This document shows positions 1 to 5,560 of a stretch of DNA of 64,000 bases, piece by piece (the stretch's first letter is position 1; the number at the start of each line of letters is the position of its first letter). The stretch covers positions 224,001 to 288,000 of the forward strand of contig CAVVYZ010000002.1 in the NCBI GenBank assembly GCA_963752595.1, written 5' to 3'. Origin of the DNA: an uncultured delta proteobacterium. Its GTDB lineage: Bacteria; Desulfobacterota; Desulfomonilia; UBA1062. The notes under the pieces were generated by a model. That model saw only the letters and a program-made list of their open reading frames with translations. It made no database searches and was not told the DNA's origin. The translations under genes and the position numbers were made by a program.

Positions 1-98
1 ATGATCTCTCCATTGCTGCTGAGGACGCACACATACATTTTCTTTGTGTGCAGATCGATTCCGCAGTAATATTTGTGCTGTTTGGTGTAGAATCTCAT
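1..98 (-). CDS. IS110-family (DEDD) transposase, N-terminal part, runs off the window
   Basis: Reverse complement of 98..1 reads MRFYTKQHKYYCGIDLHTKKMYVCVLSSNGEI (YCGIDLH = first catalytic Asp motif of IS110 RuvC-like domain); SD GGAGGAGG at 110..103; not in the ORF track because truncated. Confidence 0.85.
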   Translation of the reverse strand, partial: MRFYTKQHKYYCGIDLHTKKMYVCVLSSNGEI

Positions 99-177
99 TT
101 GGCCTCCTCCTTTGGTTGGTTTTTTGTTGTTGGCGCTTCAAATATACCACCCATTCGAGGAGGCCTTACATAGTATC
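1..177 (-). mobile_element. End of an IS110/IS1111-type element inserted in an attC site
   Basis: Transposase start plus ~80 bp non-coding end; ...CATAGTATC abuts AATGGCATGCAGCGG (attC left arm) where RYYYAAC should be; exact boundary uncertain by a few bp. Confidence 0.7.
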
Positions 178-224
178 AATGGCATGCAGCGGACGCGCTG
201 CCGCGCGCCGCTGATGCCTAGCGT
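178..224 (+). other. attC site 1 (interrupted; right core completed at 2855-2859)
   Basis: AATGGCATGCAGCGGACGCGCTGCCGCGCGCCGCTGATGCCTAGCGT: GGCAT(G)CAGCGG/CCGCTGATGCC stem with one extra base; removing 225-2854 restores GTTATGC. Confidence 0.85.
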
Positions 225-875
225 GTGTGCCGGGCATGGCACAGAGCTAGCGAGGTGAAAGTCCTCGCGCCAGGTATAAACGGAGCCGAAGGCTAGGAGA
301 AGGGCAAGGGCGTCATCGCGAGGTGGGGTCTGGAGGAAGTCCAATCCAAAAGCTGCGGGGCGACGAACAGGAACCGGATATGAGGTGTGACGTACCCGGG
401 ACGAGTCGGCACGTGACGACGAAGTCCTCCATCCGTGAGTTGTGTACGTTTTATAAATCCGGCGCTTATGCGCGAGAAAGCTCTGTGTCTTACCCCGGGA
501 GATCTGTATGGTGTCCTTCACAGGTATGGCTGAAATATTGTGGCACCGCCTTAGAAACCAGGCGGCAAACAGAGAAAACAGATCTCAGCCTGAAGCCGGA
601 AGGACTAGAGTTCTTGAGAGGGAGCTCTGACCGCCATGCAGAAGTCAGCAGAGGGCATAGTAGGTGGAAGTATCACTGAAGGCCCGAACGGTTGAGAGGG
701 ATAGTGATCTGATAGGGGAGCGCTCATTAAGCCGGCACATAGTGTGGCCGCTTGCTAGAGATGGCAAGCAATTGAGAACTGGTCATGTCAGATGAAACGC
801 CCGGCTGCCTCGTTGTAGGCAGAGTAATCAGCCGAACCGCCGTGTACGTGACCCGTACGCACGGTGGTGTGGGAG

Positions 876-2821
876 TTGCGCCTTGAAGCGCATGGAATAC
901 AGTGACCTGGGATGGCCACCCTGGTAAAGCCTAGCCAGCAGCCAGGTACCGAGTCTTGCGTGGGGTGCGGTAACAATCTTCACGAAGCGTAGACAGGAAG
1001 GTGGCAGGCCGGAACCGAAAGATGAAGAGGAAAATTAGCCCCGAAATCGAACGTGTGCGGAGCAGTCGACCCTGTCTCTCAATGGGGAAGACGGAAATGT
1101 CATATTCGTTAGAAGGGCGAGAATATGAGATTGCTTCCGGGGTTCGTACCTACGGCATGTCATCAAGGGATTCCATGTGAACAAGGGAGATCCGGCGAGC
1201 TCAGGCGGAGCCTGTAGGAGCAAACAAGCCATCAAAGCGAGGATGCTCCGATGGTTCGTCGGAAGTCGGACTGGCTGATAGTACTTTGAGGCAGGGAGAG
1301 CCTACCACATGGGGAAGCGGCTAGCAGGATTTGAGCTCTTCTAAGGGAACATGAGCTCCATACAAAGGGAGGATACGAGCCTTCATGCAAAGGAGGGAGT
1401 AACTCAGTCATGGGAACGGGATTAGAAGGGATAGCAACGAAAGCTCGGAGTGAAACAAAGCTCAAGTTCACGTCACTATGCCATCATGTGACGCGGGAAC
1501 TGATCTGGGAGGGCCTGTGCAACATACCTTACCAGTCAGCGCCGGGAGCGGATGGCATCAGCGTGGAAGAGGCGAAGAGGACATTCAATGAATGGATAGA
1601 TGAGATGCACACGTCCATTCACCGGAAAGCATACCATGCACCACCAGTAAGGCGAGTATGGATACCTAAGCCGGGGAAAGCTGCCAAGCGACCGATAGGA
1701 GTCCCTTGCATAGCCGACAGAGCACTTCAGAGGAGTGTATCAGTGATTCTGTCGAGCATTTATGAGCAGGACTTTCTGCCGTGTTCGTTTGGAGGCCGAC
1801 CGAAGCTGAGCGCCCATCATGCCCTAGCAACATTCAACGAGATTGTAGTGGGCAAGAAGGTGGAATGGGTATTTGAAGCGGATCTAAAGAACTTCTTCGG
1901 CAGTTTGGACCATGGATGGATAGAACGCTTTGTGGAGCACCGAGTCGGAGACCCGAGGATAATGAGCTTGGTTAAGCGATGGCTAAAGGCAGGTGTTCTG
2001 GAAAATGGAGAGGTTAAACCGGTAGATGTGGGGACTCCTCAAGGGGGATCCATCAGTGTGCTGTTAAGTAATCTATATCTCCACTACGCTTTGGATCTAT
2101 GGTTCGAAAGGATTATAAAGCCAAATTTAAAAGGAGAAGCTTACTTGATAAGGTACATAGACGACTTTGTGGTATGCTTCCAATATCGCTCGGATGCAAT
2201 CTTCTTTCAGGATGCGCTGGTAAAGAGACTTGAGAAATTCAGCTTGGAACTAGAGCCTGAAAAGACCCGTTTGGTGGAATTTGGGCGCTTTGCTTCGGAG
2301 AATTCAGAAAAGCGTGGAAAGAGACTGGAGACGGTTTTCTTTCTAGGATTTACCCACTACTGCTCTCGCAACAAGAAGGGCAATTTCATGGTGGGGCGCA
2401 AGACTGAGAAGGCTCGATTCCGACGGAGCATATGCAAATTGCAAACACTGATGCAGGAGATCAGGCATCATTCCCTGAGAGGATCAAGTCCTGAAAATCA
2501 ACCAAGTACTTACGAGGCCACTATGCTTACTATGGTAGTAGGAGGGAACTTTAAATCGTTGTACATGATTTATCATTACGCCGAAAGATACTGGCATAAG
2601 ATGCTTAGTAGTCGGAGCCAAAAGAGCTACATTGCCTGGGAAAGATTCAAATTCCTCAAGCAGGTGTTTCCGTTACAGCGGCCAAAGCTTTCCGTCACTT
2701 ATAGGAGGATGAAAGCGTTCGCTGTGCTGTGAATCAAATTCTGAAGAGCGTAGTGCGGGAAATCTGCACGCTACGTTCTGTGGGGGTTGGGGCTGCCAAT
2801 TGGCAGCTCCTTCTACCCGGC
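876..2821 (+). mobile_element. RT-encoding group II intron (IIB-like) nested in the outer intron (twintron)
   Basis: Starts TTGCG; Id3 stem-loop GTCGACCCTGT-CTCTCA-ATGGGGAAGAC; DV GAAGAGCGTAGTGCGGGAAATCTGCACGCTACGTTCTG at 2743-2780; DVI ending CTACCCGGC; removal restores outer DVI GGGAG|GAGGGGTGTCGTGAGGCGCCCCCCTATCCCGAT. Confidence 0.88.
1410..2732 (+). CDS. ltrA: Group II intron reverse transcriptase/maturase, no endonuclease domain
   Basis: APGADG, RRVWIPKPGK..RPIGVP, GTPQGG, RYIDDF, FLGF motifs; domain X garbled at ~2475-2545 by three compensating +1 indels (read-through QVLKINQVLRGHYAYYG). Confidence 0.95.
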   Translation: MGTGLEGIATKARSETKLKFTSLCHHVTRELIWEGLCNIPYQSAPGADGISVEEAKRTFNEWIDEMHTSIHRKAYHAPPVRRVWIPKPGKAAKRPIGVPCIADRALQRSVSVILSSIYEQDFLPCSFGGRPKLSAHHALATFNEIVVGKKVEWVFEADLKNFFGSLDHGWIERFVEHRVGDPRIMSLVKRWLKAGVLENGEVKPVDVGTPQGGSISVLLSNLYLHYALDLWFERIIKPNLKGEAYLIRYIDDFVVCFQYRSDAIFFQDALVKRLEKFSLELEPEKTRLVEFGRFASENSEKRGKRLETVFFLGFTHYCSRNKKGNFMVGRKTEKARFRRSICKLQTLMQEIRHHSLRGSSPENQPSTYEATMLTMVVGGNFKSLYMIYHYAERYWHKMLSSRSQKSYIAWERFKFLKQVFPLQRPKLSVTYRRMKAFAVL

Positions 2822-2877
2822 GAGGGGTGTCGTGAGGCGCCCCCCTATCCCGATTATGCATAGGAACTGGTTCAAAT

Positions 2878-3620: not shown

Positions 3621-3677
3621 ATCCAACCAGCCACTCCAGCCGACGGCCTATAGCCGCGGCTGACCGGCACGTTGAGG
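3621..3677 (+). other. attC site 2
   Basis: ATCCAAC-CAGCCACTCCAGCCGACGGCCTATAGCCGCGGCTGACCGGCAC-GTTGAGG: AAC/GTT cores and CAGCCG/CGGCTG stem. Confidence 0.8.
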
Positions 3678-3714
3678 CCATTGATTCATATCATTGCAAA
3701 AAATAGGAGGCATT

Positions 3715-4213: not shown

Positions 4214-4831
4214 ATGAAACGTTGTGAATGGGCTAATAGGAGCGAGTTGGAACAGTCTTATCACGATAAGGAATGGGGCACAGCAATCCATGACGACAGA
4301 AGCCTGTTCGAGTTTCTGGTGTTGGAAGGCGCGCAAGCCGGGCTGAGCTGGTCCACTATCCTTAAAAAGCGGGAAGGTTACAGAAAAGCATTCGACAATT
4401 TCGATGCCGGGAAAATCTCCCGATACTCCGAGCATGACGTCTCCATATTGCTGGCTAATCCGGAGATCATAAGAAACAGGCTCAAAATCAACGCGACCAT
4501 CACTAACGCCAGAGCGTTCTTGCAGGTGCAGGAACAATTCGGAAGCTTTGACCGTTACGTCTGGCAATTCGTTAACGGCAGAACTATCCAGAATTCATGG
4601 GAGAGGATTACTGATATTCCTTCCAGCACTCCTGAGTCCGGAGCCTTGAGCAAAGATCTGCAGAAAAGAGGGTTCAAGTTCGTTGGGACAACAATCTGTT
4701 ACGCATTCATGCAGGCCGTCGGCATGGTAAACGATCATGTCGCAGGTTGTTTCAGATACGAAGAACTCAAAAATAAGGACGAGCATAACCGGGCGGCGCA
4801 CCGAATCGCCGGGAAACCCGGCTCCCGGTGA
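4214..4831 (+). CDS. tag: DNA-3-methyladenine glycosylase I
   Basis: RCEWA, YHDKEWG, LEGAQAGLSW, IIRNRLKI, GFKFVG, MQAVGMVNDH. Confidence 0.96.
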   Translation: MKRCEWANRSELEQSYHDKEWGTAIHDDRSLFEFLVLEGAQAGLSWSTILKKREGYRKAFDNFDAGKISRYSEHDVSILLANPEIIRNRLKINATITNARAFLQVQEQFGSFDRYVWQFVNGRTIQNSWERITDIPSSTPESGALSKDLQKRGFKFVGTTICYAFMQAVGMVNDHVAGCFRYEELKNKDEHNRAAHRIAGKPGSR

Positions 4832-4845
4832 CCTTTGTGTCGGCG
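4783..4845 (+). other. Degenerate attC site 3
   Basis: GCATAAC...GCACCGAATCGCCGGGAAACCCGGCTCCCGGTGACC...GTCGGCG; right core GTT mutated to GTC; overlaps the tag 3' end. Confidence 0.65.
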
Positions 4846-5491: not shown

Positions 5492-5509
5492 TCTTCGCTG
5501 GCCCCTCTC

Positions 5510-5554
5510 ATCCACCGGAAGGCTTTCAGCCGCCGGTGATCTCAGTCGTTGACC
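5510..5554 (+). other. attC remnant 4 (left core lost)
   Basis: TCCACCGGAAGGCTTTCAGCCGCCGGTGATCTCAGTC-GTTGACC: CACCGG/CCGGTG stem and GTT core. Confidence 0.6.
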
Positions 5555-5560
5555 TTTTGA

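What the first reader, a model, noticed from the sequence alone, without database searches (positions are those of the whole stretch)
225..875. ORF-less group IIC intron retargeted to the top strand of attC
Known: described IIC-attC introns insert into the attC bottom strand after TTGT, opposite to cassette orientation, and usually encode their own RT. Seen: this one is co-oriented with the cassettes, inserted after the hairpin at GCGT|T. Its predicted EBS1 loop (GTCG-GCACGTGA-CGAC, ACGT at 411-414) pairs with the 5' exon GCGT (one G-U). Domain IV (~690-830) has no ORF and domain II looks extended. Inference: a non-autonomous IIC lineage reading the RCGT|T of right core sites, mobilised in trans or self-splicing.
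Basis: partly seen in the sequence, partly recalled or inferred. Interest (0 to 1): 0.75.

Follow-up and report, generated by a model that had tools for sequence, protein, structure and literature searches.

The report
Nested ORF-less intron in integron site
A group II intron with no protein gene sits in an integron recombination site, pointing the same way as the cassette genes and with a second intron lodged inside it; protein-coding relatives already known from plasmids use the same target, and this copy likely spread by borrowing their enzyme.

Summary
A class IIC intron starts at 225 on the attC top strand (GCGT|T); EBS1 is ACGT at 411-414; domain IV has no ORF; domain II is extended. It is the outer intron of a twintron: an RT-bearing intron (876-2821) sits between domains V and VI, and domain VI follows at 2822-2854 (684 nt in all). 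An IS1111-like element splits the other end of the same attC. 'Retargeted' is not supported: top-strand targeting belongs to a widespread lineage with RT-bearing members (100 of 105 junctions end in CGT; plasmid class 1 integrons; same-genus genomes), has a 2012 precedent, and this scan found it before on other DNA. What I did not find described: the 143-nt ORF-less domain IV is shared, with covarying stems, by copies at 14 distinct 5' junctions, which points to a long-lived non-autonomous form; and the domain II insert is a ~75-nt structured module that also occurs in domain VI of other introns. No cognate RT was found in this 84%-complete genome; mobility in trans is inferred, not shown.

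The parts
1..178 (-). Right end of a 1,699-bp IS110/IS1111-family element inserted just after the R'' box of the same attC (element spans G000 C2:222480-224178; R'' ACCTAAC lies at C2:222473-222479, outside the window)
   Evidence: two 88% copies on C20 sit at the same point of other attC sites; PF01548, PF02371
179..224 (+). attC hairpin (L'' to L') and the first two bases (GT) of R'; IBS1 = GCGT 221-224
225..875 (+). Outer class IIC intron, domains I-V and the first bases of domain VI
405..420 (+). DId3 hairpin with EBS1 (ACGT 411-414)
   Evidence: loop conserved in relatives
523..597 (+). ~75-nt structured module inserted in domain II; also in domain VI of other group II introns; no Rfam family
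689..831 (+). ORF-less domain IV, 143 nt, of a shared 141-145-nt type
836..868 (+). Domain V with CGC triad (838-840) and AC bulge (857-858)
   Evidence: sequence, folds; triad and bulge assignment from recalled IIC consensus
876..2821 (+). Inner group II intron (TTGCG...CCCGGC) inserted at the DV/DVI junction of the outer intron; predicted EBS1 CTCTCA 1076-1081 pairs with TGGGAG 870-875
   Evidence: junction also spanned by a contig of public run X1 (855-1005, 1 difference)
1410..2732 (+). RT/maturase ORF of the inner intron, 440 aa; only 31% identical to the outer family's RT
2822..2854 (+). Rest of domain VI and 3' end (…CCCGAT) of the outer intron
   Evidence: matches the 3' ends of uninterrupted relatives L308, L268 (30/33 and 31/33)
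2855..2859 (+). Rest of R' (TATGC); first base T = IBS3
   Evidence: 3' exon starts with T in 48 of 48 complete relatives

Best explanation
This is an ORF-less class IIC intron inserted at GT|T of an attC right core on the top strand and interrupted by a second, RT-bearing intron; it was likely copied there by the reverse transcriptase of a related full-length intron acting in trans, and it is predicted to be inactive now unless the inner intron splices out first. Steps: (1, shown by comparison) the lineage's EBS1 loop GCACGTGA matches targets ending in CGT|T behind an attC hairpin. (2, inferred from IIC biology) the RNA-RT particle reads the top-strand hairpin as other IIC introns read terminators or the bottom strand, and reverse-splices at GT|T. 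(3, shown) ORF loss recurred many times; one 141-145-nt ORF-less domain IV is old and structurally conserved. (4, inferred) that domain keeps the protein-binding surface, so ORF-less copies are spliced and moved by relatives' RTs. (5, inferred) copies recombine, so this one is a mosaic: DI, DIII, DV, DVI like same-genus RT introns, DII and DIV like other branches. (6, shown as structure, order inferred) an intron of a lineage that often lands after domain V then inserted into it, and an IS1111-like element split the other end of the attC, which would leave the site unusable for the integrase.
For: Target: 100 of 105 family starts follow CGT; 48 of 48 3' exons begin with T; attC geometry 46 of 72 vs 17 of 2000 genome controls and 11 of 1440 shuffles. 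Second copy in this genome, 95% identical over 290 nt, at another attC (ACGT|) in a cassette array. RT-bearing relatives in the same genus: DI 259/276, DV 44/44 identical to G305's intron, which has an intact RT; tree groups them 100/100. ORF-less domain IV: best matches are 8 ORF-less copies (z 7.4-10.8) against at most 5.2 among 18 RT-bearing ones; 19 of 44 predicted pairs show two-sided changes, 0 of 500 shuffles as high, slid controls at most 5; this type occurs at 14 distinct 5' and 10 distinct 3' junctions. Two 613-nt ORF-less copies 611/613 identical at different attC sites in G061. G242 holds one RT copy and three ORF-less ones. Trans-mobilisation of ORF-less introns is shown in Thermosynechococcus (PMC2882425, passages). 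Inner lineage follows a domain V in 6 of 10 junctions read by eye, once in this same ORF-less family in G253.
Against: No cognate RT found in G000 (84% complete), nor any match in G061 (98%) or G365 (95%) with the G305 RT as query. ORF-less status is not clustered on the DI-DIII tree (14 changes, 208 of 500 shuffles as low), and some ORF-less copies are plain recent deletions (L268, L196, L254). Several shared-type copies are decayed (G242 C62, C179; G365). Three metagenome copies share one 3' exon with different 5' exons, so some junctions may be assembly chimeras or products of recombination. Seven of the ten rows in the covariation test are close kin, so most signal comes from three divergent rows, and the structure was predicted from the same alignment. 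A looser identity count did not separate domain IV types (84-94 of 143 for all, including a copy with no DIV). No near-identical copy of this exact ORF-less element was found. No splicing or mobility data.
Confidence: 0.68

Rival explanations
1. Dead-end relic. A full-length intron inserted here, lost its ORF afterwards, and ORF-less copies multiply only by recombination between copies or by cassette movement, never by new retrohoming.
For: ORF loss is polyphyletic; clear recent deletion junctions exist; many fragments and 50-450-nt remnants occur at attC sites; the C16 copy is truncated; no cognate RT in this assembly; the window copy looks mosaic.
Against: The window's domain IV is not a deletion product of its nearest RT relatives (it aligns poorly to G305/G308) but matches a fixed-length, covarying ORF-less type at about 61-64% identity; G061 has two 99.7% identical ORF-less copies with different exons on both sides.
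Confidence: 0.22
2. Host-kept, protein-independent ribozyme. The intron is retained because it self-splices from the cassette transcript or locks cassettes in place by blocking attC, and needs no RT.
For: Co-orientation puts it on the transcribed strand; catalytic motifs of DV look intact; genomes with ORF-less copies and no RT found; C.te.I1 is a precedent for an RT-independent bacterial intron (PMC4424553, passages).
Against: It is intergenic, so splicing is not needed for a protein; this copy is broken by an inner intron and its attC is already split by an IS; decayed copies are common; new DNA copies need an RT.
Confidence: 0.06
3. The inner intron's RT serves both introns, so the twintron moves or splices as one unit.
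For: It is the only intron-borne RT found in the assembly; the same pairing of families occurs in G253; in Thermosynechococcus one RT acts on both members of a twintron (PMC2882425).
Against: The inner RT is only 31% identical to the outer family's RT, whereas the Thermosynechococcus introns are close kin; the inner lineage lands in many unrelated introns and in non-intron sites; its ORF differs by three gaps from a related contig and may be damaged or mis-assembled.
Confidence: 0.04

Closest known systems
Group IIC intron on the top strand of attC in Enterobacter cloacae (Rodriguez-Martinez, Nordmann, Poirel 2012; seen only as a passage and reference in PMC7923331; the name E.cl.GOC and its aadA1-qacEdelta1 site are recalled) and the RT-bearing introns in class 1 integrons of pR148 (NC_019380) and pPp47 (NZ_MG516912)
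   Same: Top strand, co-oriented with cassettes, inserted at CGT|TAG of R', same EBS1 loop GCACGTGA, about 80% identity in domain I, about 1,840 nt when full length.
   Different: The window copy has no ORF, has a domain II module and the shared ORF-less domain IV, and is interrupted by another intron. I could not read the 2012 paper, so identity of its intron with the plasmid introns is not tested.
Classical group IIC-attC introns (S.ma.I2 and kin; passages of PMC3001079 and PMC7923331)
   Same: Class IIC, use an attC hairpin, insert after GT of a GTT core on the targeted strand.
   Different: They insert in the bottom strand at R'' (TTGT/T), opposite to the cassettes, and encode an RT. I obtained no S.ma.I2 sequence, so their phylogenetic distance was not tested.
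ORF-less TeI3 introns and TeI3/TeI4 twintrons of Thermosynechococcus elongatus (PMC2882425, passages)
   Same: ORF-less copies with a remodelled, covarying domain IV; mobilised by relatives' RTs; twintrons formed by targeting a conserved site of another intron.
   Different: Class IIB there; one deletion event in one genome; the ORF-less intron is the inner one. Here IIC, many deletions across many genomes, and the ORF-less intron is the outer one.
Nested introns of Methanosarcina acetivorans (as reviewed in PMC4424553, passages)
   Same: Introns homing into other group II introns in intergenic DNA.
   Different: Here the landing site is the DV/DVI junction and the host is an attC-targeting IIC intron.
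IS1111-attC group (ISPa21, ISPst6, ISKpn4; passages of PMC3001079 and PMC11187229)
   Same: The upstream IS has a DEDD transposase on the antisense strand, subterminal inverted repeats, and sits at the 5' end of attC at three sites in this genome.
   Different: Phylogenetic membership was not tested; the transposase ORF is frameshifted in this assembly.

Membership tests
Group II intron | Six-domain ribozyme with GUGYG 5' end, domain V, and domain VI ending AY | tested here: met
   Rfam D1D4-3 and D1D4-1 above gathering score; DV sub-threshold match because DVI is displaced; DVI at 2822-2854 matches relatives
Group II intron | Splices and reverse-splices | not testable with these tools
   Only contigs of relatives were available in RNA runs
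Class IIC | CGC catalytic triad and short domain V | tested here: met
   CGC at 838-840, DV 33 nt; criterion recalled
Class IIC | Short EBS1-IBS1 with an upstream DNA hairpin in place of IBS2 | tested here: met
Class IIC | Class C RT | tested here: inconclusive
   The copy has no RT. The G305 relative's RT is 58% identical to that of a terminator-following intron with the same 5' architecture; no tree with named class C references was built
Classical IIC-attC | Inserted in an attC site | tested here: met
Classical IIC-attC | Bottom strand, R'', TTGT/T, opposite to cassettes | tested here: not met
   Top strand, R', GCGT|T
Classical IIC-attC | RT in the monophyletic IIC-attC clade | not tested
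   Reference record not in the collections
Top-strand attC IIC lineage (pR148/pPp47 type) | EBS1 loop GCACGTGA and CGT|T target in R' | tested here: met
Top-strand attC IIC lineage (pR148/pPp47 type) | Ribozyme groups with RT-bearing members | tested here: met
   100/100 with G305 and G308 introns; about 80% to plasmid introns
Non-autonomous (trans-mobilised) intron | No ORF | tested here: met
Non-autonomous (trans-mobilised) intron | Cognate RT in the same genome | tested here: not met
   None found in an 84%-complete assembly; present in same-genus genomes
Non-autonomous (trans-mobilised) intron | Near-identical ORF-less copies at distinct sites | tested here: inconclusive
   Met for relatives (G061 pair; 14 junctions); not shown for this exact element, whose C16 sister is truncated before domain IV
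Twintron | Complete intron nested in another with clean junctions | tested here: met

The most novel reading that the evidence does not exclude
A long-lived, SINE-like family of protein-free class IIC introns parasitises integron arrays across many genomes: a fixed ~143-nt domain IV, kept by structure rather than coding, recruits the RTs of full-length relatives, and a ~75-nt RNA module with many invariant unpaired bases moves between domain II of these introns and domain VI of unrelated intron classes as an undescribed functional RNA element.
Probability: 0.4. Interest if true: 0.6.

Novelty: new variant of a known kind. Interest (0 to 1): 0.37.

Why it matters
Reviews call bacterial ORF-less group II introns rare and nearly always tied to a cognate RT in the same genome (PMC4424553, passages). 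In this lineage 26 of 48 complete copies sampled are ORF-less (some are small remnants), and one ORF-less domain IV persists across genomes, so RT-based surveys likely undercount them. Because the intron changes the GTT core of R', it would also hide attC sites from annotation and may freeze cassettes. This one attC is hit by three elements, a compact example of integron sites as a niche for parasites. The shared domain IV gives a natural minimal RT-binding element to test. The target choice itself is not new.

Tried and rejected
1) That the RT at 1410-2732 belongs to the 225 intron: rejected; it lies in a separate intron with its own D1-D4 and DV-DVI and is 31% identical to the family RT. 2) That the C7 RT is a helper: rejected; it lies beside cas1/cas2-like genes and outside any intron match (gene identity read by eye). 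3) That R'' had decayed to ATC: rejected; the real R'' is upstream of the IS. 4) One origin of ORF loss: rejected (at least 10 changes forced by well-supported branches). 5) Rfam family for the domain II module: none; no plasmid match. 6) Expression or splicing: runs found hold only small shares and are contigs of relatives; joints from 875 to about 2822-2834 come from uninterrupted relatives or cannot be told from them, so they are no evidence of splicing or of habitat. 7) My strict attC finder missed the C2 sites, so occupancy of the C2 array was not counted; on C16 it found three intact attC sites besides the occupied one. 8) Plasmid hits H13, H16, H18 were checked as possible bottom-strand IIC-attC introns; they follow terminator-like hairpins instead. 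9) Papers not held: the 2012 E. cloacae paper, Simon et al. 2008, Leon and Roy 2009; they may describe ORF-less or top-strand cases that I could not see. Searches for a description of the module or of an ORF-less top-strand family found none; I saw listings and, for the papers cited, term-matched passages only, no supplements. 10) The G367 relative of the inner intron has lost its ORF, so it could not be used to check the inner RT.

Full report
Observation. The sequence shows a group II 5' end (GTGTG) at 225 directly after GCGT, and Rfam places group II D1-D4 models at 312-488 and 605-684. The hairpin GTCG-GCACGTGA-CGAC is at 405-420 with ACGT at 411-414. Domain V lies at 836-868 with a CGC triad, the recalled mark of class IIC. 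No + strand ORF of 60 aa lies in domain IV. The upstream hairpin folds well as DNA (z -3.4).

Anatomy beyond the finding. The intron stops after GGGAG at 875 because a second intron begins at 876 (TTGCG), with its own D1-D4 match at 910-1150, an RT ORF at 1410-2732 and DV-DVI at 2744-2821. The outer intron resumes at 2822 and ends at 2854; this piece matches the 3' end of uninterrupted relatives (30/33 and 31/33). At the other end of the attC, R'' is missing from the window because a 1,699-bp IS110/IS1111-family element is inserted right after ACCTAAC; two 88% identical copies sit at the same point of two other attC sites. An integrase remnant lies about 3.9 kb upstream on the opposite strand and an intact integron integrase is on contig C20.

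Target choice of the family. Of 231 intron-like starts, 105 have the GCACGTGA-like loop; the metagenome pattern fixed this loop by design but left the target free. Their 5' exons end in GCGT 44, ACGT 21, TCGT 18, CCGT 17 and other 5; all 48 complete copies are followed by T. Among 72 distinct 5' exons, 46 have AAC plus at least 6/7 L-box pairing at top-strand attC spacing, against 17 of 2000 genomic CGT|T sites and 11 of 1440 shuffles; 1 of 72 has a T run. Starts that lack this loop mostly follow hairpin-plus-T tracts (by eye). A second copy in this genome (C16, 95% over 290 nt) sits after ACGT in another attC. So top-strand attC targeting is a real family trait, with an effective motif NCGT|T.

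It is not a trait of ORF-less copies only, and it is known. 21 of the 48 complete copies have an RT, 26 are ORF-less under 1 kb and 1 is decayed. Two RT-bearing members sit co-oriented in class 1 integrons, after aadA1 in pR148 and after aac(6')-Ib4 in pPp47. PMC7923331 (passages) states that an unusual IIC intron in E. cloacae lies in the top strand of attC in cassette orientation, citing a 2012 paper that I could not open. The earlier scan notes report the same lineage, including ORF-less copies, in other genomes; my own counts agree with them.

Origin of the ORF-less state. On a tree of 44 DI-DIII sequences the label changes 14 times, no less than shuffles. The window copy groups at 100/100 with RT-bearing introns of two same-genus genomes; DI is 259/276 and DV 44/44 identical to G305's. 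Yet its domain IV is not a simple deletion of theirs, unlike L268, which is. It matches instead a 141-145-nt ORF-less domain IV found in G242, G365 and metagenomes: z 7.4-10.8 for 8 such copies against at most 5.2 for 18 RT-bearing ones, at 61-64% identity. In a 10-row alignment 19 of 44 predicted pairs change on both sides and stay paired; no shuffle of 500 reaches this and slid controls give at most 5. Caveats: seven rows are close kin, the structure came from the same alignment, and a looser identity count did not discriminate. This type is seen at 14 distinct 5' and 10 distinct 3' junctions, three of which share a 3' exon and may be chimeric. G061 has two ORF-less copies, 611/613 identical, with different exons on both sides. 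Fixed length, divergence and conserved pairing argue for selection on the RNA after ORF loss; discordance between domains suggests recombination among copies (inference).

Who supplies the RT. This genome yields only the inner RT and a CRISPR-linked RT. With the G305 RT as query, G242 has a 64% match, G253 and G203 only distant ones, and G061 and G365 none. All are incomplete assemblies and repeats often drop out, but the absence counts against ongoing mobility here. Trans-mobilisation has experimental precedent in Thermosynechococcus (PMC2882425, passages).

Domain II module. The extra ~75 nt (523-597) occur in domain II of 12 family-type introns, with or without RT, and in domain VI of 6 other group II introns, among 21 distinct matches (3 unplaced by the script). 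In 18 rows, 96.8% of cells pair and 6 of 19 pairs covary, and many unpaired bases are invariant. Rfam has no family for it. Its function is unknown; a tertiary or protein-binding module spread by recombination is my guess.

Inner intron. Its relatives follow a domain V of another intron in 6 of 10 junctions read by eye, and in G253 one sits at the same base of an ORF-less member of the outer family. Its predicted EBS1 (CTCTCA) pairs with TGGGAG; a Sinorhizobium relative has CCCCGT against GCGGGG. Earlier scan notes describe such intron-homing lineages. Insertion separates the branch-point domain from the catalytic core, so the outer intron could splice only after the inner one (general rule stated in PMC4424553).

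Verdict. Real, well-defined, and mostly of known kinds: a top-strand attC IIC intron, an ORF-less derivative, a twintron, and an attC-targeting IS. The parts I did not find in print (searches; three key papers unavailable) are the conserved ORF-less domain IV shared across genomes and the DII/DVI module. New variant of a known kind; interest 0.37.

Noticed in passing
G000 C16:14331-14090 (minus strand), locus L186: The second copy of the outer intron is interrupted inside domain III (after GAGGGCATAGT) by the 5' part of another GTGCG intron; relatives of that fragment occur in loci L034, L129, L225, L248 at 80-87% identity.
   Followed up: partly
L049, L050, L051, L054, L057 (genomes of one genus, g27): Miniature remnants of about 50-220 nt that keep the intron's 5' end and its DVI end at attC R' sites; several carry a short palindromic insert. 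Each has a different deletion; MITE-like spread not tested.
   Followed up: partly
window 2247-2757: A contig of run X1 differs from the inner RT gene by 22 letters and three gaps; upstream genes (NTPase-like cassette, transposase, integrase remnant) are also frameshifted, so the assembly may carry indel errors.
   Followed up: no
G000 C2:219763-220093 (about 3.9 kb upstream of the window): Truncated integron integrase on the minus strand; an intact one is at C20:132916-133845 near two IS-interrupted attC sites.
   Followed up: partly
window 3622-3678, 4783-4840, 5495-5555: Further attC-like hairpins downstream, some degenerate, between small cassette-like genes including a DNA-3-methyladenine glycosylase at 4214-4831 (read by eye).
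   Followed up: no
L040, L039, L139, L341, L343 domain III: Some family members carry a further long insert in domain III, resembling in places the domain II module.
   Followed up: no
G000 C7:55822-53500 (minus strand): An RT gene next to cas1- and cas2-like genes, a CRISPR-associated RT by context (identity by eye).
   Followed up: no
G000 C17:30282-30172: A short 5' fragment of another IIC-like intron after a terminator-like hairpin.
   Followed up: no
L325 (G367 C98): An 88% identical relative of the inner intron is itself ORF-less (about 690 nt) and sits in a non-intron site ending TTTTGTGAGAG.
   Followed up: partly
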